This document shows positions 17,769-57,980 of a stretch of 64,000 nucleotides of DNA, in pieces. Every line of letters begins with the position of its first letter. The first letter of the stretch is position 1. The notes under the pieces are model-generated. The model was not told the origin of the DNA, did no database searches, and saw only the letters and a list, made by a program, of their open reading frames with translations. The position numbers and the translations under genes were made by a program. Source of the DNA: Candidatus Nomurabacteria bacterium (GTDB lineage Bacteria > Patescibacteriota > Minisyncoccia > Phycocordibacterales > UBA9973); contig JBPOHU010000009.1 of the NCBI GenBank assembly GCA_052035195.1, positions 34,107 to 98,106 on the forward strand, given 5' to 3'.

Positions 17769-17850
17769 GCCCGGGTGGCGAAATTGGTAGACGCACCAGT
17801 CTTAGGAACTGGTATCGTAAGATGTGAAGGTTCAAGTCCTTTCTCGGGCA
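17769..17850 (+). tRNA. tRNA-Leu (anticodon TAG), class II with long variable arm
   Basis: Acceptor gcccggg/ctcgggc, anticodon stem ccagt/actgg with loop cttagga, T-arm gaagg-ttcaagt-ccttt; no encoded CCA. Confidence 0.85.
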
Positions 17851-17881
17851 CAGTGTACAGAATGAGTTTTGTTTAAATTAC

Positions 17882-17905
17882 GCGCTTATAGCTTAGTTGT
17901 AGCGG
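17882..17905 (+). pseudogene. Degenerate fragment of the tRNA-Lys 5' half (acceptor + D-arm)
   Basis: gcgcttatagcTtagTtgGtagCGg compared with gcgcttatagctcagctggtagagc of the intact tRNA-Lys 50 nt downstream; cannot fold into a full tRNA. Confidence 0.5.
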
Positions 17906-17953
17906 TTCCACGTGCAATGAGTTCGAAGTTGTGAATTGTAAATTAAATATTAT

Positions 17954-18026
17954 GCGCTTATAGCTCAGCTGGTAGAGCAGCTCCCTTTTAAGGAGACGGT
18001 CGCAGGTTCGAATCCTGCTAAGCGCA
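17954..18026 (+). tRNA. tRNA-Lys (anticodon TTT)
   Basis: 73 nt; acceptor gcgctta/taagcgc, D-arm gctc-agctggta-gagc, anticodon loop cttttaa, T-arm gcagg-ttcgaat-cctgc. Confidence 0.85.
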
Positions 18027-18032
18027 CAAATA

Positions 18033-18062
18033 AAAATAACCCTATGTGGGTTATTTTTATTT
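18033..18062. terminator. Bidirectional terminator (aaataaccc-tatgt-gggttattt) at the centre of a larger inverted duplication
   Basis: Perfect 9-bp stem flanked by A-rich and T-rich tracts. Confidence 0.7.
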
Positions 18063-18390
18063 ATGCGCTTAAGTAAGCAAACTGCTTTGCTTACGTGCAG
18101 GATTCGAACAGCGGAGTCTTAATCCGCCAGCAGGCGGATAGACGAGCTGGTGCCTAGCCCGAGCTGTACGACTGGTACAGTGAGAGGCGAAGGAGAATCC
18201 TGCTTTTACTAATTTGTGGTCACACTATCTTTATTTATTGGTCACGAGTTACTAAGTCTACTCATCCTTCGGCAAGCTCAGGATTCCGTGGACTAAGTAC
18301 TCTCGACCCCGCCTCGCCTGTCTTACAGACATAGCTGTGGCCCACAAAGCTAGAAAAAGTGACGCAGGTTACTTTTTCTTTAACGCTTTG
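18063..18390 (-). ncRNA. ORF-free, highly structured region; candidate novel ncRNA(s) and/or tRNA-derived remnant (see findings)
   Basis: No credible ORF; multiple strong hairpins; contains an inverted partial copy of the tRNA-Lys 3' end, a tRNA-like 9-bp closing helix (gcaggattc...gaatcctgc) and blocks shared with 25121-25252. Confidence 0.35.
18345..18378 (-). terminator. Terminator of the tRNA-Cys/tRNA-Leu(TAA) minus-strand unit (gaaaaagt-aacctgcgtc-actttttc)
   Basis: 8-bp stem followed on the minus strand by U-rich tract. Confidence 0.55.
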
Positions 18391-18473
18391 TGCCCGAGGC
18401 GAGACTCGAACTCGCACGACATTACTGTCTGAGGATTTTAAGTCCTCTATGTCTACCATTCCATCACTCGGGC
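18391..18473 (-). tRNA. tRNA-Leu (anticodon TAA), class II
   Basis: Reverse complement gcccgag..gagga-cttaaaa-tcctc..long variable arm..gcgag-ttcgagt-ctcgc-ctcgggc-a. Confidence 0.85.
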
Positions 18474-18500
18474 AATATTTATATTTTATTGTACTTACAG

Positions 18501-18572
18501 AGGCCTGGGTGGGAATCGAACCCGCGTATAAAGATTTTGCAGATCTCTGCCTTACCACTTGGCTACCAGGCC
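18501..18572 (-). tRNA. tRNA-Cys (anticodon GCA)
   Basis: Reverse complement ggcctgg-ta-gcc-aagtggtaa-ggc..gagat-ctgcaaa-atctt..gcggg-ttcgatt-cccac-ccaggcc; one C:A mismatch in T-stem. Confidence 0.8.
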
Positions 18573-24995: not shown

Positions 24996-25078
24996 GCGTC
25001 GGTGGTAGAGTGGTCAATTACATCAGACTGTAAATCTGACGCCTTCGGGCTACGCAGGTTCAAATCCTGCCCGGCGCA
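24996..25078 (+). tRNA. tRNA-Tyr (anticodon GTA) with long variable arm
   Basis: Acceptor gcgtcgg/ccggcgc (one G:U), anticodon stem-loop catcag-actgtaaatct-gac, variable arm gccttcgggc, T-arm gcagg-ttcaaat-cctgc. Confidence 0.8.
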
Positions 25079-49377: not shown

Positions 49378-50826
49378 ATGGAAAATACTCAAAAAGTCGT
49401 CACTCGCTTCGCCCCGAGCCCAACAGGTTTTGTTCACATAGGAGGTATACGTACAGCTCTCTTTGCTTATCTTTTAGCTCGTAAATATGGTGGAAAATTT
49501 ATTCTTAGAATAGAAGACACGGACCGTGCTCGTGTGGTTGATGGTTCACTTGAACATATTCAAGAGTCTTTAAAATGGCTTGGTCTTAATTGGGATTTTG
49601 GACCTGACAAACCAGGATCATTTGGTTCTACTATTCAATCAGAACGTCGTGACACTTATATTCCTTGGGCACAAAAACTTATTGAAAAAGGTTTGGCTTA
49701 TCCTGACCCTTATACACCAGAAGAAGTAGAAGCATTTAGACAAAAAGCTCAAGAAGAAAAAAGAGCATTCTTATATAGAGAACATAGACCAGAAACATTT
49801 GGTGTTTGGGATGGAAAAACTGCGCTTAGATATAAGGTTCCAGAAATCAAGCGTTATGATTGGTATGATGAAGCTCGAGGAAGATTGTCAGCTGGCCCAG
49901 AAGCATTAGACGATATCATTATCATGAAAGCTGATGGCTATCCTGTTTATGCTTTTGCTCATATTATTGATGATTACAATATGGGAGTTACTCATATATT
50001 GCGCTCTGATGAATGGATATCAAGTGTTCCTCGTTTTTTGAGTTTGTATGAATCATTAGAAATACCACCTCCAATACAAGCTACTTTGCCACCGATATTG
50101 CGAGATGATCGTACAAAAAAGCTCGGAAAAAGAGATGGCGCAAAAGATGTTCTTGATTATAAAAAGGAAGGATATTTGCCGGCCGCTATACTTAACTATC
50201 TTGCGCTTATTGGATGGAATCCAGGAACAGACCAGGAGTTATTTACTCTCGAAGAGTTGATACAAGCATTTTCTCTTGATCGTATTCAAAAAGCCGGAGG
50301 AGCATTTAATGAAGAGAAACTTGATTGGTTCAACAGAGAATATATTAAGAAGCTCTCAACAGAAGAGTTTTGGGATTATGCCAAGCCTTGGATACCAGAT
50401 AATTACAAAAATACTGAGCTTGCCGAAGTATTGAAAAAACTAGAATCAATTATTCGCGACAGAATAGAGAAGTTTGCAGATGTAAAAACTTTGTTTGAAG
50501 GGGCTAGTCCTGAGCTTGCCGAAGGAGAGATGGATTACTTTTTCAAAGCTCCAAAGGTAGATGATGCGATGTTATTTTGGAAAGACTCAACTCTTGAAAA
50601 AGCTCATGAATTTCTTAAGGAAATAAAATCTATTTTGAAAGATTTAGAATCTTGGGATTATGAAAGTATCAAAGGCGCTATTTGGCCTTATGCAGACAAA
50701 GAGGGTAGAGGAGCAGTGTTGTGGCCTATGCGGGTAGCTCTTTCAGGGAAAGAGAAGTCACCAGACCCATTTGAGATAGCAAGTATTTTGGGCAAAGAAG
50801 AGACTTTGAAAAGGTTGACTTTTTAA
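49378..50826 (+). CDS. gltX: Glutamate--tRNA ligase
   Basis: VVTRFAPSPTGFVHIGGIRTALFAY N-terminus, class I catalytic core, 482 aa. Confidence 0.9.
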   Translation: MENTQKVVTRFAPSPTGFVHIGGIRTALFAYLLARKYGGKFILRIEDTDRARVVDGSLEHIQESLKWLGLNWDFGPDKPGSFGSTIQSERRDTYIPWAQKLIEKGLAYPDPYTPEEVEAFRQKAQEEKRAFLYREHRPETFGVWDGKTALRYKVPEIKRYDWYDEARGRLSAGPEALDDIIIMKADGYPVYAFAHIIDDYNMGVTHILRSDEWISSVPRFLSLYESLEIPPPIQATLPPILRDDRTKKLGKRDGAKDVLDYKKEGYLPAAILNYLALIGWNPGTDQELFTLEELIQAFSLDRIQKAGGAFNEEKLDWFNREYIKKLSTEEFWDYAKPWIPDNYKNTELAEVLKKLESIIRDRIEKFADVKTLFEGASPELAEGEMDYFFKAPKVDDAMLFWKDSTLEKAHEFLKEIKSILKDLESWDYESIKGAIWPYADKEGRGAVLWPMRVALSGKEKSPDPFEIASILGKEETLKRLTF

Positions 50827-50841
50827 ATCAAAAATGCTATA

Positions 50842-51300
50842 ATGCTAGTCGATAAACCCATTTGTTCTAAAAAAATTAAATTTATTCTTATGAGCCCTTT
50901 TGCAACTATTTCTGATATGCCTTTTTCAAAGGAAGATCGACTTGGACTGTTCTTGATCCTTATTGAATGCAGGACAGCTACAAAGGTCAATATTGATAAA
51001 GAGACAGCAGAACTTGGCCTCATCAAGATACTTTTGATGAGGATAGGTTTTTTCTTTTCAGAAATAAAAACACCAGAAGATTCAAAAACCATTTGCATGG
51101 CCGTATCAAAAACAAAAAGCTGCGCAGATGAGCTTAAGAAAGCTGTTGAAACAAAAGACCAGGTAAAATTTAAGGAATTATCAGGCTACCAACCCGTATT
51201 CCCCTTAGAAAAAAACCACGAATCACTTATTAAAATGCTAAGAGAAAAGGCTCCTAGTCTTTATAAAGATTTCGCTCCAACAGTCCTTAGGGTGGCATAG
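50842..51300 (+). CDS. Hypothetical protein
   Basis: 152-aa ORF followed by a terminator. Confidence 0.4.
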   Translation: MLVDKPICSKKIKFILMSPFATISDMPFSKEDRLGLFLILIECRTATKVNIDKETAELGLIKILLMRIGFFFSEIKTPEDSKTICMAVSKTKSCADELKKAVETKDQVKFKELSGYQPVFPLEKNHESLIKMLREKAPSLYKDFAPTVLRVA

Positions 51301-51318
51301 TGCCACAAAGAAATTACG

Positions 51319-51352
51319 GAAGCCGTTTGATATCAAACGGCTTTTTTGTTTC
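51319..51352 (+). terminator. Rho-independent terminator (aagccgtttga-tat-tcaaacggctt + T6)
   Basis: 11-bp stem. Confidence 0.8.
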
Positions 51353-51360
51353 TTGAAAAT

Positions 51361-51391
51361 AAAAATTGCACCGATTTTGCGGTGCAATTTA
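51361..51391 (-). terminator. Terminator for the 51394-51846 gene (ttgcaccg-caaaat-cggtgcaa + U-run on minus)
   Basis: 8-bp stem; forms a convergent terminator pair with 51319-51352. Confidence 0.75.
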
Positions 51392-51393
51392 CT

Positions 51394-51846
51394 TTAGTTA
51401 AGTTGGGCGTTGAAGTCTTGTTCAGTTTCGTCCTCTTTCTTCAAAGAGTACGTTGCCATATCAAACTTCAAAGATAATAAAATAATAATTTGAATAGGTT
51501 TTCCTCCTTGGATAGTACCAAAAATAACCCAGCAATCCGGAAACACTACTTTTTCAAAGAAGTAAGCCCCAGCCCTTAGTATCCCGGATGTGCTACTTTT
51601 AGAAAAAACACTTTGAGTATTTAGTTTTGAGTCAGTTGTTATCTTTGTTTTTAAAAGTTTCGGAGGAAAAGCATTTTCAATGATCAATCTCAACTTTCTT
51701 TTGCCAAATTCTGGATTATCAGGATGAGAAACTATAGCTTCCATAGGAAAAGATCTTATCAGTCCCTTTGAGAGCAGTTCGAGTTGTTCTATTTGAGACT
51801 CGAAAGATATCATGCCTGTAGAGGGGAAGGTGCCTTTTTGTATCAT
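51394..51846 (-). CDS. Hypothetical protein
   Basis: 150-aa ORF. Confidence 0.45.
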   Translation of the reverse strand: MIQKGTFPSTGMISFESQIEQLELLSKGLIRSFPMEAIVSHPDNPEFGKRKLRLIIENAFPPKLLKTKITTDSKLNTQSVFSKSSTSGILRAGAYFFEKVVFPDCWVIFGTIQGGKPIQIIILLSLKFDMATYSLKKEDETEQDFNAQLN

Positions 51847-51932
51847 TACTATAAATTTTAATGTGGTTTAAAGATATAATACAGTAAATATATAAAATGT
51901 CAAATAAAAAGAATTGTAAAAGGTTTTGAAAT

Positions 51933-52202
51933 GTGGGAGTATATAGAAATATGAAACAAGAAATTTTTCCACAAAACAACGAAGGGGTATCACTAGAAGA
52001 AGCTCTAGCAGCTATTTCAGCTGTTAACTCTGAGCTTATTGGTTTCCAAGCTAGTCAAGAAGCTTTCAATGAAGTGGCTTTACTCAAGGAGCGCCTAGAA
52101 GGAGGTGAGTCTCCAACTCTTATTATGAAAGAAGCAGAAGACCTCAGAGACCTTGCGCAGCTAGCTCATAACTCATCAGAGAGTCTAGACGTAGCTGCTT
52201 AA
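51933..52202 (+). CDS. Hypothetical small acidic protein
   Basis: 89-aa ORF with own terminator. Confidence 0.4.
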   Translation: MGVYRNMKQEIFPQNNEGVSLEEALAAISAVNSELIGFQASQEAFNEVALLKERLEGGESPTLIMKEAEDLRDLAQLAHNSSESLDVAA

Positions 52203-52220
52203 ATACATCTATTTTAAAAA

Positions 52221-52256
52221 AGCGGTTTTGACTAAAGCCAAAACCGCTTTTTTGTA
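52221..52256 (+). terminator. Rho-independent terminator (agcggttttg-actaaagc-caaaaccgct + T6)
   Basis: 10-bp stem. Confidence 0.8.
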
Positions 52257-52331
52257 TTCCAAAACATCTCTTAATCTAGCAATCTCAAAGCTTATTTTTT
52301 GGCTTGGAAAAACCCCTAAAATGTGGGATAG

Positions 52332-54746
52332 TTGTTAGATACTATGAGTCTTTACGAAAAGCTTACAAGTGCAAAAAGCGAAGAGGACGTAAAGGATGCT
52401 TACATAAAAGCTATAGGACTTAAAGACGTAAATAAAGGTCTTATTGATATTCGAACAGATCGTGTATGGTTTGAAGCCAAAGATAAAGGGAATACTACTA
52501 CTTATGAGATGTTTACTCAGCTATTACACTATGTGCAAATGGCTCGAGATAAAGGAGAAAAGATACCTGCTATTTTGTGCGTCATTGATACCAAAAAAGC
52601 AGCAATAATGAAAACAGAAGATGCTCTGCCGTTACTTGAAAAAAAAGAAATTAAATGGGGTAAATCAGCAAGTAATTATACACAAGAAGCACTTGAGATG
52701 GTTTCTACATATATTGGTACTTATTTTGTTTCATACAATATTGCAACTCACGAAAAAGAATTTATTGAAGCTATTCGTAGCGCTATTAAAACAGGAGAGA
52801 TTATTCGTACTCAGATAACCCCAGACAATCTTAAACAAGTATTTGATAAATGGATTGATATGATTGGTAAAGAGATCAAAGATGTTGATGCTGAAAAATA
52901 CTCTTTACTGTTTTTTGCTGACATTATGCACGATGGTACAGTTTCTACTCATAAGGATTTACCAGCAAGTCTTATATATAAAGACGGGGTTCCTGCATTT
53001 GCGCTTGGAGGTACCATTTATGAACTTGGTAGTAAAGAAGGTTATAGAAAGTTTTGGGCTATTTATGACAAACCACCAAAACAAGAACATAGAGATTATC
53101 TTCTCGAGAGACGTGACAGCTTGATCCCCATTGATGAGCGTAGTTTCAAAGGTGCTTATTACACACCGCTTCACGTTGTAGATAAGGCTTATGATAAATT
53201 AACCGAAACACTAGGGGATAATTGGCAACAAGAATATATTGTTTGGGATATGTGTTGTGGGGTTGGAAATTTAGAGGTAAAACATTCAAACCCTCGTAAT
53301 ATTTATATGAGTACTCTCGATGCTCCTGATATAGACGTGATGCGTGCTACAAAAACATGTGTTGCTGCTACAAAGTTTCAATATAATTACCTAAACGACG
53401 ATATCGCTGATGATGGTAAGATTGACTATAATCTTACAAACAAAGTTCCTGAAAGTTTGCGTAAGGCCATTAAAGACGGAAAGAAAATTTTAGTTTTGAT
53501 TAATCCACCATATGCAGAAGCAACTAATGCAGATAATACCTCTAAGGGTAGTGATGCTGAAAATAAAACCGGAGTAGCAAAAACAAAATTTGCCAAAACA
53601 GCAATGGGTGAATATGGAAAGGCAAGTAATGAACTCTTTACACAATTTATTGTTCGAATCGCACAAGAAATACCAACAGCAACTTTAGCAATTTTTAGTA
53701 AACTTAAATATATTAACTCTCAAACACTTGATGTTTTTAGAGATAAATGGAACTCTAGTTATTTAGGAGGTTTTATAGTTCACAGTAAAGCATTCGATGG
53801 TTTAAAAGGGGAGTTTCCAATCGGCTTTCTTATTTGGAAAACATATTCAAGTATAGACGGCAAGACACCTATAATTAAAATTACTACAGAAGTTTTAGAT
53901 AAGAATGCAAGACCAATCGGAGAGAAAACTTTTTATAATTTATCCAGCGACCAATTGTTAACTAATTGGGTAGTAAGACCAAAAGCAAATAAAATAGATA
54001 CTGTTCCTTTAAAAAATACTATAACACCAGCTACTTCTGATAAGGATTTACGTGGTACAAAGTGGTCTGATAATGCGATTGCTTGGTTAAATTGTCCTGG
54101 TAATGAAACACAACAAACAAATTCAATAGCACTACTATCTTCAGGTTTTAGTAGCGGTAGAGGATTCTTTCTTAATAAAAATAATTTATGGCAGGCATCA
54201 ATTATTTTTACTGTTCGTCGTATTATAAAACCGACTTGGCAAAATGATCGGGATCAATTTTTGCAACCAACAGGTGAGCTTAGTGAAGAATTTAAAAATG
54301 ATTGTTTAGTCTGGATGCTTTTTAATGGAAGTAATCTCACCGCAAGTGCAAATGACCTTGAGTGGAATGGAAAAAAGTGGAGTATTGTAAATCACTTCAT
54401 ACCTTTTACTGAAGAAGAAGTTATAGCTACTGGTCGTTTTGAATCTAATTTCATGGTTGAGTATATGAAAGGGAAGGAATTTTCATCAGAGGCTCGTGCT
54501 GTAATCGAAGAAGGTAAGAAGTTGTGGCAAGCATATTTTTCACACACAGATGAGAGAAATGTAAGAGACGAACTTAAACTCAATCGTCCTGATGTAGGAT
54601 GGTATCAAATAAGAAACGCCTTAAAGAAACGTAATGAAAGCGCTGATTTGCCACCAGTGAGTTTTTCTAGTTTTGAAAAAGCATACAAAGAACTTTCACA
54701 AAAATTAGAACCACAAGTCTACGAATTAGGTTTTCTTAAAAAATAG
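52332..54746 (+). CDS. Type IIL (MmeI-family) restriction-modification enzyme: N-terminal PD-(D/E)xK nuclease, gamma-class N6-adenine methyltransferase, C-terminal target-recognition domain
   Basis: D..x..WFEAKDKG nuclease motif near residue 40-55; AYYTPLHVV (motif X), DMCCGVGNLE (motif I), LINPPYAEAT (motif IV NPPY); order and spacing mirror MmeI. Confidence 0.75.
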   Translation: MLDTMSLYEKLTSAKSEEDVKDAYIKAIGLKDVNKGLIDIRTDRVWFEAKDKGNTTTYEMFTQLLHYVQMARDKGEKIPAILCVIDTKKAAIMKTEDALPLLEKKEIKWGKSASNYTQEALEMVSTYIGTYFVSYNIATHEKEFIEAIRSAIKTGEIIRTQITPDNLKQVFDKWIDMIGKEIKDVDAEKYSLLFFADIMHDGTVSTHKDLPASLIYKDGVPAFALGGTIYELGSKEGYRKFWAIYDKPPKQEHRDYLLERRDSLIPIDERSFKGAYYTPLHVVDKAYDKLTETLGDNWQQEYIVWDMCCGVGNLEVKHSNPRNIYMSTLDAPDIDVMRATKTCVAATKFQYNYLNDDIADDGKIDYNLTNKVPESLRKAIKDGKKILVLINPPYAEATNADNTSKGSDAENKTGVAKTKFAKTAMGEYGKASNELFTQFIVRIAQEIPTATLAIFSKLKYINSQTLDVFRDKWNSSYLGGFIVHSKAFDGLKGEFPIGFLIWKTYSSIDGKTPIIKITTEVLDKNARPIGEKTFYNLSSDQLLTNWVVRPKANKIDTVPLKNTITPATSDKDLRGTKWSDNAIAWLNCPGNETQQTNSIALLSSGFSSGRGFFLNKNNLWQASIIFTVRRIIKPTWQNDRDQFLQPTGELSEEFKNDCLVWMLFNGSNLTASANDLEWNGKKWSIVNHFIPFTEEEVIATGRFESNFMVEYMKGKEFSSEARAVIEEGKKLWQAYFSHTDERNVRDELKLNRPDVGWYQIRNALKKRNESADLPPVSFSSFEKAYKELSQKLEPQVYELGFLKK

Positions 54747-54751
54747 TTTTT

Positions 54752-55555
54752 ATGACTAAGCATTATTATTTATATATTGATGATTCAGGATCAAGGTTTC
54801 CGGATAAAAATTCTGAAAAAAGAAATGATGGAATGGATCATTTTGCTTTAGGTGGAATTTTAGTTGAGAGTAATAATAGAGATGTTTTAAAGAAAAAATA
54901 TATTGAATTTTGTCAAAAATGGCAAATTCATTACCCTTTACATTCAACTGAAATTAGAGGAATGAGAAGAAGTTTTTCTTGGCTTGAAAAAAGCTCAAAA
55001 CAAAAAGATAAATTTTTAGAAGAACTAACTAATTTTTTAGTAGAGATTCCAGTTATAGGTTTTGCCGCAGTTATTCATAGGCCCGGGTATAATTTTCGCT
55101 ATAAATATAAATACGGAGATAAAAGATGGTGGATGTGTAAAACAACTTATTCAATTTTAATTGAAAGAGTTTCAAGGTATGTCAAAGATAATAATGGAAC
55201 TTTTGAGATTAGATTTGAGGGCGTTGGACCGAAAGAAGATAAGGCTATTATTCAGTATGCAAAAGATCTAAAAAATATAGGATCACCTTTTGATCCTTTT
55301 ACTTCTAATAAGTATAATCCTTTAAAAAAAGAAGATTATAAAAAAATTATTTTAGGAGAACCAAGGCAACGTTTTAAAGAAAATTTATTTATACAAATAG
55401 CAGATTTATATTTATATCCTATGGTAAAAAGAAAATATGACCCGTCATATAAATCATGGAATATTTTATTTGATAATAAAAAAGTGATAGATTCTTTTGT
55501 AGAAGAAATAGATTTAAATGATAAAGGAATTAAATATAGTTGTTTTGACTTTTAG
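54752..55555 (+). CDS. DUF3800 family protein
   Basis: N-terminal YLYIDDSGS plus conserved His/Asp positions characteristic of DUF3800; 5 nt downstream of the RM gene. Confidence 0.6.
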   Translation: MTKHYYLYIDDSGSRFPDKNSEKRNDGMDHFALGGILVESNNRDVLKKKYIEFCQKWQIHYPLHSTEIRGMRRSFSWLEKSSKQKDKFLEELTNFLVEIPVIGFAAVIHRPGYNFRYKYKYGDKRWWMCKTTYSILIERVSRYVKDNNGTFEIRFEGVGPKEDKAIIQYAKDLKNIGSPFDPFTSNKYNPLKKEDYKKIILGEPRQRFKENLFIQIADLYLYPMVKRKYDPSYKSWNILFDNKKVIDSFVEEIDLNDKGIKYSCFDF

Positions 55556-55563
55556 GTATAAAG

Positions 55564-55594
55564 CAAAAATCCTGAGTTTCCTCAGGATTTTTTG
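55564..55594 (+). terminator. Rho-independent terminator (aaaatcctgag-tttc-ctcaggatttt + T-run)
   Basis: 11-bp stem. Confidence 0.8.
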
Positions 55595-55735
55595 CCGGCT
55601 CGCAAACGCGAACCCCCGGGCAATGCCCATGTCTACATATTAACAGAATATGTAAAAAAATCAATAGCTGTGTGGATAACTTAATTATCTCTAAAACCAT
55701 GGTATTAGTCATATTCTTTTATATACTAAATAAGT

Positions 55736-56233
55736 ATGAATAAATTATTTTTTATTTTCTTAGTAATAGCTATTGGTGGAGTAATCTTGAAAGATCTTCT
55801 TGAGAGTAAACCAGAAAACAAAAAGAAAAAACTATTATATCAATATAAGAAAAAAGATTTTTTGATCACGCGAGCAGAGCACGAGTTTTTTGATATTTTG
55901 GTTGAAATATTTGGAGATAAATATCATGTGTTTACCCAAGTCCATCTTCCAACAATTCTTGAACACAAAATAAATGGGCAAAATTGGAAAGGATCTTTCA
56001 GCCATATAAATGGCAAGTCAGTAGACTTTGTTATTTGTGATAAGGAATATATAAAGCCGCTTGTAGCTATAGAACTAGACGACAAAAGTCATGAAAGGTT
56101 AGATAGGATAGAGCGCGATAGTGAAGTAGAAAGAATGCTTAAAGAAGCAGTAATGCCATTGATAAGATTCGAAAATCACGGGTCTTTTGATAAGGAAGAA
56201 ATAAATAAAACAATTTCTGAATTTTTGAAATAA
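55736..56233 (+). CDS. DUF2726 family protein (NERD/PD-(D/E)xK nuclease-like), N-terminal TM anchor
   Basis: ITRAEHEFFDIL...VDFVICDK...PLVAIELDDKSH...ERMLKEAVMPLIRF matches the DUF2726 core. Confidence 0.6.
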   Translation: MNKLFFIFLVIAIGGVILKDLLESKPENKKKKLLYQYKKKDFLITRAEHEFFDILVEIFGDKYHVFTQVHLPTILEHKINGQNWKGSFSHINGKSVDFVICDKEYIKPLVAIELDDKSHERLDRIERDSEVERMLKEAVMPLIRFENHGSFDKEEINKTISEFLK

Positions 56234-56235
56234 AA

Positions 56236-56268
56236 AAGAGATAGTTTTGAGCTATCTCTTTCGTTTTT
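56236..56268. terminator. Bidirectional terminator (aagagatag-ttttgag-ctatctctt)
   Basis: 9-bp stem between convergent genes. Confidence 0.75.
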
Positions 56269-56278
56269 ATAAATTATT

Positions 56279-56746
56279 TTATTTAGTCTGCACGTTGGGT
56301 GCATCGTCTCCAGAGAACACTTGCGTGTCTGTATCCGGATGTTTTGCAAAAAGCTGGAAACAGAACCATGGGTGTCCGCTATTTTTAACACCACCAAGGA
56401 TCCTGAATCCTGTGTAAGAAGATCTTTCAACCTGCATAATTTCACAGACAAAATCAAAGACCTTTTGGTCACTCATTTCTCTGATTTTAGAATCAACACC
56501 GAAACCGGCGAGCCCATATTTCTTCAGACAATTCTGAGCTTCTTCCATACGCCAGCCTTCGATGCGATCCAGAAAAGCGACATTAATTTTGTCTTTTTCA
56601 GATTCAAAGGTAAGAGGGAATTTGAATTGTTTGATCAACATTCCGCTAGCATTGCCGAAGGTGCCCATTGCTGTACAGCTATAAGGTTGAGCCTTATCTA
56701 CTTCAAGTAAGTTTTTATTACCTGGTAACAAAGTACTATTTTCCAT
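56279..56746 (-). CDS. Hypothetical protein, convergent with the DUF2726 gene
   Basis: 155-aa ORF, no recognisable motif. Confidence 0.45.
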   Translation of the reverse strand: MENSTLLPGNKNLLEVDKAQPYSCTAMGTFGNASGMLIKQFKFPLTFESEKDKINVAFLDRIEGWRMEEAQNCLKKYGLAGFGVDSKIREMSDQKVFDFVCEIMQVERSSYTGFRILGGVKNSGHPWFCFQLFAKHPDTDTQVFSGDDAPNVQTK

Positions 56747-56828
56747 ATTTAATGTTTTTTACTATTATACATAGTATTATTAGTTTGTCAAATAAATAAG
56801 ATTTGAGTTTCTGTTATACTACGCGCAC

Positions 56829-57980
56829 ATGAAAACAAAGTTTCTACTTCTTACCACTATCTTTATCGATGTCATCGGTCTTGGGATTATCATCCCGGTA
56901 CTGCCTTTCTATGTCCAAGGCTTTGGGGTCTCGGATGCTGTAGTTACAATACTTTTTGCTATATATGCACTTTTATCATTTCTCTCAGCTCCACTTCTAG
57001 GTTCTCTGTCAGATCGTATAGGTAGGCGTCCAGTGCTTGTGATCAGTATTGCTAGTAGTGCTATAGGCTGGTTGGTTTTTGCTTCAGCTAAGGCTGTCTG
57101 GGTGCTTTTCTTGGGGCGTATTATCGACGGACTTGCAGCGGGTAATATCACAAGTGCCCAAAGTGCGCTTGCTGACATCGCCAAGACCGACAAAGAGCGT
57201 ACAGTAAATATGGGACTCTTTGGTGCGCTCTTTGGTATAGGATTTATTGTAGGGCCAGCGATAGGGGGAGCATTGTCACATATCAGTACTACTGCACCAT
57301 TTTATTTTGTTGGAATACTAGCGACACTTAATGCTATCTTTGCTTTCTTTTTCCTTCCAGAGACACATCATGCCAAAAAAGTGGGAGCACCACTATCTTT
57401 CAATCCATTTATTCCTATTCGAGACGGACTTGCTCTTCCAGAAATGCGCAAGATATTTGTGACTTGGTTTATTTTCGGTATTGCGCTTTCGCTTCAACAA
57501 GGAAGTTTCTCTCTATACCTCGCACGAGTCTTTGATATGTCGGCTGGAAATATAGGATTGCTTTTTGCTGGTATAGGGATACTGATACTTATCAATCAAC
57601 TTTTCTTGCTTCGCAAAGTTTGGTTCAAACTCGGATCTACTAGAGCAGTAGGGCAAGTGATGTTTGTAGTCTTTGGTATAGGTATGGTGCTTCAAGCAGT
57701 GCCTTTGATACTAGCTCTTATTATCGGACTTGTAGCTACAACCTTTGGACAAGGAACACTCCGTGCTGTTTATGGTGGGCTTATTGCCAATGCTGCTCCA
57801 GAGAAGCGTGGTGAATATATAGGTATATCATCGTCCCTCATGTCTCTCTCAATGGTTATAGGGCCATTTATTGCTACGTTTTTAGTAGCGAAGCATCCAA
57901 GCTTTTCTTTTGTGATTGCTGGAATACTTGGCTTTATTGCTTACTCTATTAATATCAACTGGAAGAAACGTCATTTATAG
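56829..57980 (+). CDS. MFS transporter (drug/H+ antiporter-like)
   Basis: 12 predicted TM helices; motif A GSLSDRIGRRPVL between TM2 and TM3. Confidence 0.85.
   Translation: MKTKFLLLTTIFIDVIGLGIIIPVLPFYVQGFGVSDAVVTILFAIYALLSFLSAPLLGSLSDRIGRRPVLVISIASSAIGWLVFASAKAVWVLFLGRIIDGLAAGNITSAQSALADIAKTDKERTVNMGLFGALFGIGFIVGPAIGGALSHISTTAPFYFVGILATLNAIFAFFFLPETHHAKKVGAPLSFNPFIPIRDGLALPEMRKIFVTWFIFGIALSLQQGSFSLYLARVFDMSAGNIGLLFAGIGILILINQLFLLRKVWFKLGSTRAVGQVMFVVFGIGMVLQAVPLILALIIGLVATTFGQGTLRAVYGGLIANAAPEKRGEYIGISSSLMSLSMVIGPFIATFLVAKHPSFSFVIAGILGFIAYSININWKKRHL

What the first reader, a model, noticed from the sequence alone, without database searches (positions are those of the whole stretch)
52332..56746. 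Compact defense-like island: MmeI-family Type IIL RM enzyme + DUF3800 + DUF2726 nuclease-like protein + convergent unknown
Seen in sequence: an 804-aa protein with an N-terminal D-x-WFEAK nuclease motif, then YYTP, DxCCGxGN and NPPY methyltransferase motifs in the order seen in MmeI. This is a single-polypeptide restriction-modification enzyme. Five nt downstream sits a DUF3800 gene (YIDDSGS start). After a terminator comes a TM-anchored DUF2726 protein with a PD-(D/E)xK-like IELDDKSH core, and a 155-aa unknown protein converges on it. The block is bracketed by strong terminators (52221 and 56236) and followed by accessory-type genes (MFS, TspO, DUFs). Established knowledge: DUF3800 and DUF2726 are uncharacterised families often reported within defense islands. 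Inference: DUF3800 may be functionally coupled to the RM enzyme, given the 5-nt spacing and a likely shared transcript. DUF2726 plus the convergent gene may form a separate toxin/immunity or abortive-infection pair.
Basis: partly seen in the sequence, partly recalled or inferred. Interest (0 to 1): 0.65.

Follow-up and report, generated by a model that had tools for sequence, protein, structure and literature searches.

The report
Variable island: restriction enzyme, DUF3800 with sRNA
A strain-variable slot next to gltX holds three unrelated add-on modules: a stand-alone cut-and-methylate restriction enzyme from a large, unannotated family built like MmeI/DrdV, a DUF3800 nuclease that always travels with a previously unlisted ~65-nt small RNA gene, and a lone DUF2726 nuclease-like gene; they are neighbours, not partners.

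Summary
The 804-aa protein (probably 800 aa, from ATG 52344) has invariant PD-ExK and gamma-class N6-adenine methyltransferase motifs. A high-confidence model (pLDDT 93) matches the Type IIL enzymes DrdV and MmeI best. It hits no MmeI Pfam domain, no other Pfam family and no NCBIfam model, and sources call it 'hypothetical'. So it is MmeI-like in build but belongs to a separate, unannotated family: about 1,959 clusters at 50% identity, and 589 confirmed matches in a one-genome-per-species collection across many phyla, plus copies on small plasmids. It is a lone gene. In 83 loci no neighbour is conserved, and none has DUF3800, DUF2726 or the 155-aa gene nearby. DUF3800 instead has its own constant companion, a convergent ~65-nt three-hairpin small RNA gene with promoter and terminator. 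It is present in 6 of 6 independent DUF3800 loci, absent elsewhere, and matches no Rfam family. The 155-aa gene belongs to the backbone, because homology with a sister strain ends just past its stop codon; that strain carries other defence-type genes there. Verdict: a real defence-type variable island of independent modules. The proposed DUF3800–RM and DUF2726–unknown pairings are not supported.

The parts
52300..52334 (+). 35-nt promoter-like element (TTGGAA, 17 nt, TGn-GATAGT) 9 nt upstream of the probable ATG of protein A. It is 100% identical in a relative whose core genes are only ~70% identical, where it precedes an unrelated first cargo gene.
52332..54746 (+). Protein A: stand-alone Type IIL-like restriction-modification enzyme. 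Longest ORF 804 aa from TTG 52332; probable start ATG 52344, giving 800 aa.
52332..52796 (+). A, aa 1-155: PD-(D/E)xK nuclease domain (alpha-beta-beta-beta-alpha-beta core; E17, D39, E48-x-K50 invariant). Boundary approximate.
52797..53141 (+). A, aa 156-270: helical spacer with a small beta-sheet insert. Boundary approximate.
53142..53846 (+). A, aa 271-505: gamma-class N6-adenine methyltransferase domain (motif X YYTP, motif I DMCCGVGN, motif IV NPPY). Boundary approximate.
53847..54191 (+). A, aa 506-620: TRD-like, most variable segment (entropy 1.35 bits against 0.55-0.75 elsewhere; 16 of the 40 most variable sites). Boundary approximate.
54192..54746 (+). A, aa 621-804 plus stop: conserved C-terminal, mostly helical region. 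Boundary approximate.
54752..55555 (+). Protein B: DUF3800, described in the literature as an RNase H-like fold. Conserved D10, E138, E156, E162, Q215-x-A-D218, D247. Relatives are named Patescibacteria.
55565..55631 (-). Predicted ~65-nt small RNA gene convergent with DUF3800: P1 GGGC/GCCC, P2 GGUUCGC/GCGAGCC, P3 terminator hairpin plus U-run.
55637..55664 (-). Promoter of the small RNA: -35 TTGATT (55664-55659), 16-nt spacer, extended -10 TGT-TAATAT (-10 hexamer at 55642-55637), 5 nt before CAUGGGC. Equivalent boxes are present in all six copies.
55736..56233 (+). Protein C: DUF2726 (Vsr/DUF559-like branch of the PD-(D/E)xK superfamily) with a hydrophobic N-terminal segment. Part of the variable cargo; no conserved partner found.
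56235..56261 (.). Bidirectional terminator hairpin. The right edge of the variable cargo lies here, because nucleotide homology with the sister strain begins at 56258.
56279..56746 (-). Protein D: 155-aa lineage-restricted backbone gene, not part of the cargo. It has its own perfect sigma-70-like promoter at 56791-56764. Function unknown.
50830..52299 (.). Rest of the gltX-to-D interval: ORFs with no family hit (152 aa +, 150 aa -, 89 aa +) and several terminator-like hairpins. It has no counterpart in the syntenic relative L092. Whether it is cargo or lineage-specific backbone is undecided.

Best explanation
The interval between gltX and the 155-aa gene D is a strain-variable hotspot. In this genome it holds three independent modules. 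(1) Protein A is a self-contained Type IIL-like restriction-modification enzyme. By analogy with MmeI and DrdV, its TRD (about aa 506-620) and gamma-class methyltransferase domain would recognise a short asymmetric DNA site. The NPPY site would methylate an adenine with SAM to mark host DNA, and the N-terminal PD-ExK domain would cut unmethylated DNA at a fixed distance when enzyme molecules meet. It belongs to a large, unannotated family that spreads as a single gene, partly on small plasmids. (2) DUF3800 (B) is an RNase H-fold nuclease that forms a two-part module with a convergent ~65-nt small RNA gene. The most likely reading is that the conserved P1-P2 body of the RNA binds or regulates the nuclease, acting like a type III antitoxin or a cofactor. 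The shared terminator hairpin links the 3' ends of the two transcripts. (3) DUF2726 (C) is a solitary, probably membrane-tethered Vsr/DUF559-like nuclease-fold protein. D is a backbone gene. Shown here: the gene content, the invariant motifs, the fold match, the absence of conserved neighbours, the constant RNA/DUF3800 pairing and the island edges. Inferred: every enzymatic activity, the recognition and cleavage geometry, transcription of the RNA, and how the RNA and nuclease interact.
For: A: E17/D39/E48/K50, T278, D306/G310 and N391-P393 are invariant in 47 sequences averaging 27% identity. The AF2 model has pLDDT 93.1 and pTM 0.85. Foldseek against PDB ranks DrdV 7lo5 (E=3.5e-11, 760 columns) and MmeI 5hr4 (7.8e-10, 840 columns) first, ahead of the methyltransferase CamA, the Type IIB RM enzyme BsaXI, the methyltransferases BseCI and BrxX, and HsdM. 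The family profile's best PDB sequence hit is DrdV. The MmeI five-domain plan (PMC4833311) maps onto the model's secondary structure. No neighbour is conserved in 83 loci; the +/-1 neighbours fall in 133 Pfam families, none found in more than 3 loci. 73 of 80 species copies are intact; 72 of 73 keep D-x8-E-x-K and 73 of 73 keep motifs X, I and IV. Gene GC tracks host GC (r=0.85, GC3 0.20-0.72) while the protein stays at least 65% identical, which indicates purifying selection. Variability is concentrated in aa 506-620. A is the main cargo on 10-kb plasmids. One relative carries an N-terminal TIR fusion. B + RNA: a near-invariant block lies downstream of 6 of 6 independent B homologs (50-67% protein identity), although the next genes are unrelated. 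All six copies fold independently into the same three hairpins, each preceded by -35/-10 boxes and followed by a U-run on the minus strand, and each is more stable than its reverse complement. The U.G pair on the minus strand would be a C.A mismatch on the plus strand. 102 of 102 cells pair, 6 pairs show compensatory changes, and 0 of 500 shuffles reach this. The covariance model scores 72-87 bits only at DUF3800 loci in 1.26 Mb; the next best is 19.5. The literature reports DUF3800 as RNase H-like and associated with 11 other RNA motifs, retron type VII and Cas12a2. Island: synteny with L092 holds on both sides while the cargo differs (DpnI-like, adenine glycosylase). In the sister strain, D is followed by an N6_N4 MTase and an AIPR gene, and homology breaks at 56258.
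Against: No activity of any protein was tested. A has no detectable sequence similarity to MmeI. Global TM-scores to DrdV and MmeI are low (0.28-0.31, rmsd 14-20 A), so the match reflects shared domains and their order, not a rigid superposition. The nuclease domain could not be fold-searched on its own. The unusually high conservation of A (65-90% across phyla, including roughly 50-65% in the TRD region) is atypical for RM enzymes and might indicate a more constrained role. For the RNA there are only six independent copies. P1 never varies and P2 has a single compensatory pair, so most covariation lies in the terminator, which any terminator would show. The alignment used for the counts was fitted to the structure. 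There is no expression data. PADLOC gives only a weak hit for B (E=0.0025) and none for C or D, so the defence role of B and C rests on context alone.
Confidence: 0.7

Rival explanations
1. A, DUF3800 and perhaps the small RNA work together as one system. DUF3800 would be an accessory nuclease of the RM enzyme, co-transcribed from the promoter upstream of A.
For: There is a 5-nt gap, no terminator between A and B, and no separate promoter for B in this window. In another lineage a B homolog overlaps the stop codon of a Type I hsdS gene by 4 nt, and MTase genes lie within 3 kb of a third. So DUF3800 modules do tend to sit beside RM genes.
Against: None of 83 A-homolog loci has a DUF3800 gene within about 8 kb. 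No B-homolog locus has an A-family gene. A occurs alone on small plasmids. B is confined mainly to Patescibacteria, whereas A spans many phyla.
Confidence: 0.08
2. A is not a host-protective restriction enzyme. It is either an orphan or regulatory methyltransferase whose nuclease domain has another role, or a purely selfish addiction gene maintained on plasmids.
For: Conservation across phyla is very high with full GC amelioration, unlike most RM enzymes. A is the main cargo of small non-mobilizable plasmids. Many copies sit among housekeeping genes.
Against: The PD-ExK residues are invariant across the whole family and kept in 72 of 73 intact copies. Variability is concentrated in the TRD, as expected for diversifying restriction specificity. 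Six of 80 copies are split, as is common for costly RM genes. A TIR-fused relative and frequent TA/defence neighbours point to conflict systems. Addiction and defence are not mutually exclusive for RM genes.
Confidence: 0.15
3. The conserved block next to DUF3800 is a DNA-level element, such as a recombination or insertion site or a protein-binding site of a mobile DUF3800 cassette, and not an RNA gene.
For: The sequence is almost invariant over about 45 nt, more than a small hairpin RNA needs, and P1 shows no covariation. B modules lie next to integrases or at island borders in 2 of 6 loci. The upstream box TTATCCACA resembles a DnaA box (own knowledge).
Against: The strand asymmetry favours an RNA: U.G on one strand against C.A on the other, and a U-run consistently on the minus strand. 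-35/-10 boxes sit at a fixed distance in all six copies. P2 has a compensatory U:A to C:G change, and the minus-strand RNA is consistently more stable. No second copy or inverted partner that would mark element ends was seen in the window.
Confidence: 0.15
4. DUF2726 and the convergent 155-aa gene D form a toxin/immunity or abortive-infection pair.
For: They are convergent neighbours that share one bidirectional terminator.
Against: D has only three homologs among 5.8 billion proteins, and none has a DUF2726 neighbour. In a 94-95% identical strain, homology ends between the two genes, at 56258. D keeps its position relative to core genes in a syntenic relative that carries different cargo.
Confidence: 0.04

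Closest known systems
MmeI family / Type IIL RM enzymes (MmeI, PDB 5HR4; DrdV, PDB 7LO5)
   Same: One polypeptide with the same domain order: N-terminal PD-ExK nuclease (D...ExK at the second and third strands), helical spacer, gamma-class N6-adenine MTase (motifs X, I, IV), TRD, C-terminal helical region. These are the best structural matches. No second MTase and no conserved flanking gene, as reported for MmeI homologs. Variability is concentrated in the TRD.
   Different: No detectable sequence similarity to MmeI: no MmeI_N/hel/Mtase/TRD/C Pfam hit, and the family profile does not reach 5HR4 at E<=10. Shorter (800 aa against 919 for MmeI and about 1,029 for DrdV). D-x8-ExK rather than D-x9-ExK. 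The spacer carries a beta-sheet insert. Only 8-13% identity in structural alignments. Far more conserved within its main clade than MmeI-family enzymes are described to be.
Type IIG enzymes (Eco57I/BpuSI type), and MTase+TRD proteins such as BREX PglX/BrxX and CamA
   Same: Gamma-class MTase plus TRD core. Weak Pfam N6_Mtase or Eco57I hits in distant relatives. Structural matches to BrxX and CamA.
   Different: BrxX and CamA lack the nuclease domain, and BrxX needs the other BREX genes. A has an invariant nuclease motif and no partners. The Eco57I Pfam hit is sub-threshold and seen in one distant relative only.
DUF3800-associated RNA motifs (DUF3800-I to -XI, Weinberg et al. 2017, PMC5737381)
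   Same: A conserved structured non-coding element tied to DUF3800 genes, on the opposite strand, ending in a Rho-independent terminator. This is the situation described for several of those motifs.
   Different: It matches none of the Rfam 15 families, which include DUF3800-I and DUF3800-IX, even at E<=10. It is very small (about 40 nt of body plus terminator) and found here only in Patescibacteria-type DUF3800 loci. I could not check the motifs' published consensus drawings, because the supplement is not held.
DUF3800 effectors of type VII retrons and TPR-DUF3800 proteins linked to Cas12a2
   Same: The same Pfam domain, described as an RNase H2-like fold with acidic catalytic residues and a QxxD motif, always working alongside a non-coding RNA. 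B keeps D10, E138, Q215-x-A-D218.
   Different: No reverse transcriptase, Cas gene or TPR domain lies near B or its homologs. The N-terminal motif is D-D, not D-E.
Vsr / DUF559 / DUF2726 branch of the PD-(D/E)xK superfamily
   Same: C matches Pfam DUF2726 strongly and DUF559/MTES_1575 weakly. It has the DF...IExDxxxH pattern. DUF2726 is described as a restriction-endonuclease-fold domain found in mobile and defence contexts.
   Different: C has an N-terminal hydrophobic anchor and no fused sensor domain. No function is known for any DUF2726 protein.

Membership tests
MmeI family (sequence family: Morgan et al. 2009; Pfam MmeI_N/hel/Mtase/TRD/C) | Significant sequence similarity to MmeI over the whole length (BLAST E<1e-20 in the original definition) | tested here: not met
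   No Pfam hit at E<=10 apart from a chance ENOD93 match. The profile of 47 family members does not hit chain 5hr4 at E<=10; DrdV is hit only at E=1.3e-4, within the MTase core. The criterion is quoted.
MmeI family / Type IIL architecture | N-terminal PD-ExK nuclease, with conserved D at strand 2 and ExK at strand 3 | tested here: met
   E17, D39 and E48-x-K50 are invariant. The model has helix 17-28, a strand element at 39-41 and a strand at 45-49. 72 of 73 intact copies keep D-x8-E-x-K.
MmeI family / Type IIL architecture | Gamma-class N6-adenine MTase, with motifs in the order X, I, IV, followed by the TRD | tested here: met
   YYTP (aa 276-279), DMCCGVGN (306-313) and NPPY (391-394) are invariant or nearly so. 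PADLOC MTase_II E=2.6e-4. The variable TRD-like segment follows.
MmeI family / Type IIL architecture | Five-domain fold: nuclease, helical spacer, MTase, TRD, C-terminal helices | tested here: met
MmeI family / Type IIL architecture | Stand-alone gene: no separate methyltransferase and no conserved flanking gene | tested here: met
   No conserved neighbour in 83 loci. The +/-1 neighbours are heterogeneous. Lone cargo on plasmids.
MmeI family / Type IIL function | Methylates one strand only, cuts about 20/18 nt from an asymmetric site, needs two sites | not testable with these tools
   Needs methylome sequencing and cleavage mapping.
DUF3800 (PF12686) | Pfam model above the gathering score, with an N-terminal acidic motif and a C-terminal QxxD | tested here: met
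   43.7 bits against a cut-off of 21. D10 and Q215-I-A-D218 are conserved in at least 97% of 119 sequences. The N-terminal motif is DD, not DE (motifs described).
DUF3800-associated RNA motifs (Rfam families DUF3800-I, -IX and others) | Match to one of the curated covariance models | tested here: not met
   No match at gathering score or at E<=10 over 51000-57500.
DUF3800-associated RNA motifs (as a kind) | Conserved structured non-coding element consistently adjacent to DUF3800 genes, often with a 3' terminator | tested here: met
   6 of 6 independent loci. CM scores of 72-87 bits occur only there. The structure is kept in 100% of cells with 6 covarying pairs. Based on only six copies.
DUF2726 (PF10881) | Pfam model above the gathering score | tested here: met
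   94.3 bits against a cut-off of 24.7, covering aa 43-161.
Toxin-antitoxin or Abi pair (DUF2726 + D) | The two genes co-occur in relatives | tested here: not met
   The three homologs of D have no DUF2726 neighbour. Homology breaks between the genes.
Known anti-phage systems in PADLOC-DB v2 | Significant match to a system component model | tested here: inconclusive
   A matches only MTase_II, at E=2.6e-4. B matches PDC-M04A at E=0.0025. C and D have no hit.

The most novel reading that the evidence does not exclude
The DUF3800 nuclease and its convergent ~65-nt RNA form a previously unlisted two-component RNA-protein conflict module of Patescibacteria, for example a type III-like toxin-antitoxin or an RNA-licensed nuclease. 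Because it is so small, it could become the tractable model for the open question of what the many DUF3800-associated RNAs do. Separately, protein A would found a new, very widespread Type IIL-like enzyme family. Its unusually conserved scaffold and hypervariable TRD positions could yield new programmable restriction specificities.
Probability: 0.3. Interest if true: 0.7.

Novelty: new variant of a known kind. Interest (0 to 1): 0.5.

Why it matters
First, a family of at least several thousand single-chain restriction-modification-like enzymes is invisible to Pfam, NCBIfam and genome annotation. This includes copies in cultured Acinetobacter, Fluviibacter, Chromatium and Kaistella strains. Defence-system surveys therefore undercount RM content, notably in the small genomes of Patescibacteria. 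Type IIL enzymes are also valued as scaffolds for engineering new specificities. Second, the work separates neighbourhood from partnership. The tight 5-nt spacing that looked like functional coupling is not conserved, while a non-coding element that no ORF-based reading could see is the real constant companion of DUF3800. That adds a compact, promoter-to-terminator-defined example to the unexplained set of DUF3800-associated RNAs. Third, it documents a gltX-adjacent hotspot where related strains swap different RM or Abi cargo.

Full report
OBSERVATION. Pfam confirms DUF3800 for B (E=5.8e-11), DUF2726 for C (E=5.9e-27), and MFS and TspO downstream. Terminator-like hairpins flank the block and are enriched in the region: 13 found against 4.2 expected (sequences read). 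One correction: homolog alignments begin at residue 5 of A, and a conserved promoter-like element ends at 52334. The real start is therefore probably ATG 52344, giving 800 aa.

PROTEIN A IS MmeI-LIKE IN BUILD BUT IS NOT AN MmeI-FAMILY MEMBER. A hits no Pfam family, including the five MmeI domain models, and no NCBIfam model. It has only a weak PADLOC 'MTase_II' match over aa 268-344. Yet it has more than 5,600 homologs. The best 120 are about 800 aa, 70-90% identical over the full length, carry no Pfam domain, and are named 'hypothetical' wherever a source names them. An exhaustive HMMER search of representatives found 1,959 clusters at 50% identity, many full-length at 25-37% identity. In an alignment of 47 such sequences with 27% mean identity, the invariant residues are E17, D39, E48 and K50 (a PD-ExK nuclease signature), G274/T278 (motif X), D306/G310 (motif I) and N391-P392-P393 (motif IV). 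A profile of this alignment reaches DrdV in PDB only at E=1.3e-4, within the methyltransferase core, and does not reach MmeI at E<=10. Distant relatives reach Pfam N6_Mtase or Eco57I only weakly.

A first structure model from close homologs was poor. A model from a 106-sequence alignment was excellent, with pLDDT 93.1 and pTM 0.85. Foldseek against PDB ranks the two solved Type IIL enzymes first: DrdV (E=3.5e-11, 760 aligned columns) and MmeI (E=7.8e-10, 840 columns). Next come CamA, the Type IIB RM enzyme BsaXI, BseCI, BrxX and HsdM, which share mainly the MTase and TRD. Global TM-scores are low (about 0.3), so what is shared is the set and order of domains. The published MmeI plan is nuclease 1-155, helical spacer, gamma-MTase, TRD, C-terminal helices (PMC4833311). 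It maps onto A as roughly 1-155, 156-270, 271-505, 506-620 and 621-804.

A IS A LONE GENE UNDER STRONG SELECTION, WIDELY TRANSFERRED. The best 80 are 65-73% identical. They come from Bacteroidota, several Patescibacteria lineages, Beta- and Gammaproteobacteria, Campylobacterota, Ignavibacteria and Balneolaceae, including cultured Chromatium okenii and Kaistella gelatinilytica. Two loci labelled as Alphaproteobacteria have 32-33% GC flanks and are probably mis-binned. Gene GC follows host GC (r=0.85), and GC3 spans 0.20-0.72. The DNA has therefore adapted to very different hosts while the protein has barely changed. That means purifying selection, not one recent sweep. Of the 80 copies, 73 are intact. 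Among those, 72 keep D-x8-E-x-K and all 73 keep motifs X, I and IV. Six copies are split. Among three neighbours on each side in 83 loci, no family recurs in more than three loci. The immediate neighbours fall into 133 Pfam families, mixing housekeeping genes with Fic, ParE, AbiEii-like, AriA, ResIII and HNH genes. Variation concentrates in aa 506-620: entropy is 1.35 bits against 0.55-0.75 elsewhere, and 16 of the 40 most variable sites lie there. This is the pattern of a fixed scaffold with a diversifying recognition domain. Full-length copies are the main cargo of 10-kb plasmids in Acinetobacter and Fluviibacter, where RefSeq annotates them as hypothetical. One metagenomic siphovirus protein is a clear structural relative (E=4e-29). 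One relative has an N-terminal TIR fusion.

Together this supports a self-contained Type IIL-like RM enzyme. The recognition site, one-strand methylation and cleavage distance are inferred by analogy with MmeI (PMC2731913) and were not tested.

DUF3800 IS NOT A PARTNER OF A. None of the 83 A-homolog loci contains a detectable relative of B, C or D. The only hit was the window's own organism, L011. B's roughly 1,000 homologs are named almost only from Patescibacteria, which is also my basis for guessing the host. Their contexts differ: NERD plus an AAA_15/RloB gene pair; inside a Type I RM operon, overlapping hsdS by 4 nt; near ParB-MTase and LexA-MTase genes; and twice beside an integrase, close to the rpsO and pnp genes. 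B modules therefore frequent RM-rich or mobile regions, but not next to A's family. In this window B is probably co-transcribed with A, given the 5-nt gap and the lack of a terminator. That arrangement is local.

DUF3800'S REAL COMPANION IS A SMALL RNA GENE. Aligning the 175-470-nt gaps after B and its homologs revealed a near-invariant GC-rich block directly after a variable hairpin, although the B proteins are only 50-67% identical and the next genes are unrelated. Read on the minus strand, every copy has a -35 box (TTGAnn), a 16-17 nt spacer, a -10 box (TAnnAT), a short gap (5 nt in five copies by the script's pick, 8 nt in L098), and then CAUGGGC. After that come P1 (GGGC/GCCC), P2 (GGUUCGC/GCGAGCC) and a terminator hairpin with a U-run. 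All six fold independently into this shape, at -31.6 to -37.4 kcal/mol, and each is more stable than its reverse complement.

The strand is indicated in two ways. A U.G pair on the minus strand would be a C.A mismatch on the plus strand, and the U-run lies on the minus-strand side. In the most divergent copy, P2 carries a compensatory U:A to C:G change. On a structure-aware alignment all 102 cells pair, six pairs show double changes (five of them in the terminator), no shuffle out of 500 reaches these values, and the slid controls fall to 20-47% paired. A covariance model scores 72-87 bits only beside DUF3800 genes in 1.26 Mb, and the next best score is 19.5.

No Rfam 15 family matches, although Rfam holds DUF3800-I and DUF3800-IX. 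This is the kind of association Weinberg et al. described for eleven other DUF3800 motifs, in a new and very compact form. DUF3800 is reported as an RNase H-like fold that works with RNAs in type VII retrons and Cas12a2 loci. B keeps D10, E138, E156, E162, Q215-x-A-D218 and D247, together with many conserved Arg, Tyr and Lys residues. I found no conserved pairing between the RNA body and the B mRNA. The only antisense relation is the terminator, which lies 6-9 nt past the stop codon or overlaps the CDS by 15-27 nt. I therefore favour an RNA-protein relationship, as antitoxin or cofactor, over mRNA antisense control. This is inference. The caveats are that there are only six copies, P1 never varies, and there is no expression data.

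DUF2726 AND D ARE NOT A PAIR, AND THE ISLAND EDGES CAN BE PLACED. D has three homologs among 5.8 billion proteins. In a syntenic relative (L092), the genes on both sides of the interval are conserved: ftsW, murG and gltX on one side, and D', TspO, the PF1765-like gene, DUF1905 and the GTPase gene on the other. The gltX-to-D interval there holds a TPM phosphatase, an adenine glycosylase, a 214-aa gene and a DpnI-like gene instead. In a strain with 94-95% nucleotide identity, D is followed by a 138-aa gene, an N6_N4 MTase, a 207-aa gene and an AIPR gene, and homology with the window ends at 56258, in the hairpin between C and D. D is therefore backbone, and it has its own perfect promoter. C is cargo. 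C matches DUF2726 strongly and DUF559/MTES_1575 weakly, which places it in the Vsr-like branch of the PD-(D/E)xK superfamily. It has no conserved neighbour here.

The left edge of the island is less clear. Nothing between 50830 and 52299 has a counterpart in L092. However, a 35-nt stretch at 52300-52334 is 100% identical to L092, and in both genomes it lies 9-16 nt before the first cargo gene. It is unique in the window and absent from the other collections searched. It reads as a promoter with an extended -10 box, and it may be a fixed expression or recombination site of the hotspot. This remains unexplained.

VERDICT. This is a real defence-type variable island, and A is a single-chain Type IIL-like RM enzyme, but of a separate unannotated family. 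Both proposed functional pairings fail the comparative test. The unexpected result is the small RNA gene tied to DUF3800. Nothing here is categorically new: it is a new family of a known enzyme architecture and a new member of a known but unexplained class of RNA-protein associations.

Noticed in passing
window 52300-52334 (+); L092 10067-10101 (-): A 35-nt stretch (TGGCTTGGAAAAACCCCTAAAATGTGGGATAGTTG) is 100% identical between two genomes whose core genes are only ~70% identical, and both its flanks are unrelated. In each genome it lies 9-16 nt upstream of the first gene of different cargo. It is promoter-like (TTGGAA, 17 nt, TGn-GATAGT). It may be a fixed promoter or recombination site of the hotspot.
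   Followed up: partly
window 55530-55712 (-): A 60-aa ORF overlaps the predicted small RNA gene and is called as a gene on the sister contig (L011 7035-7217). No counterpart is called in the other DUF3800 loci, so it is probably a spurious gene call.
   Followed up: partly
P0176, P0208, P0263 (distant relatives of protein A): Family members carry extra modules: an N-terminal TIR domain (P0176, 1,068 aa), an LPD3 insertion (P0208) and a weak LAGLIDADG-like segment inside the MTase region (P0263), which could be an intein or homing-endonuclease insertion.
   Followed up: no
L026, L049, L024, L064, L018, L080 (A-homolog loci): Six of 80 species-level copies of protein A are split into two or more ORFs. 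They could be frameshifts, pseudogenes or assembly errors, and may reflect inactivation of a costly RM gene.
   Followed up: partly
L046 (labelled Rhizobium sp.), L083 (labelled Asaia bogorensis): The flanks of the A homolog have 32-33% GC, far below what is expected for those genera. The contigs are probably mis-binned, so the Alphaproteobacteria entries in the host range should be discounted.
   Followed up: no
L104/L105 and L109: In two Patescibacteria genomes the DUF3800 + RNA module lies in a small block that includes a tyrosine integrase, close to the rpsO, NYN and pnp genes. This suggests a recurrent integration spot there.
   Followed up: no
L100/L101 5001-5849: A DUF3800 homolog overlaps the stop codon of hsdS by 4 nt inside a Type I RM operon that also holds Fic and NYN genes and is interrupted by an IS30-like transposase before hsdR.
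   Followed up: no
window 55669-55677 (minus strand TTATCCACA): A 9-mer identical to the E. coli DnaA-box consensus (own knowledge) lies just upstream of the small RNA's -35 box. It is conserved exactly in one further copy and with a single mismatch in two more. It may be an upstream promoter element or a coincidence.
   Followed up: no
window 17769-18572 and 24996-25078: Five tRNA genes, four of them clustered on both strands at 17.8-18.6 kb (Rfam).
   Followed up: no
window 49378-50826 vs L092 12456-13820: GltX is only 44% identical between the two syntenic genomes, while the neighbouring MurG and FtsW are 81-88% identical. The gene next to the hotspot may itself have been replaced, or it evolves unusually fast.
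   Followed up: no
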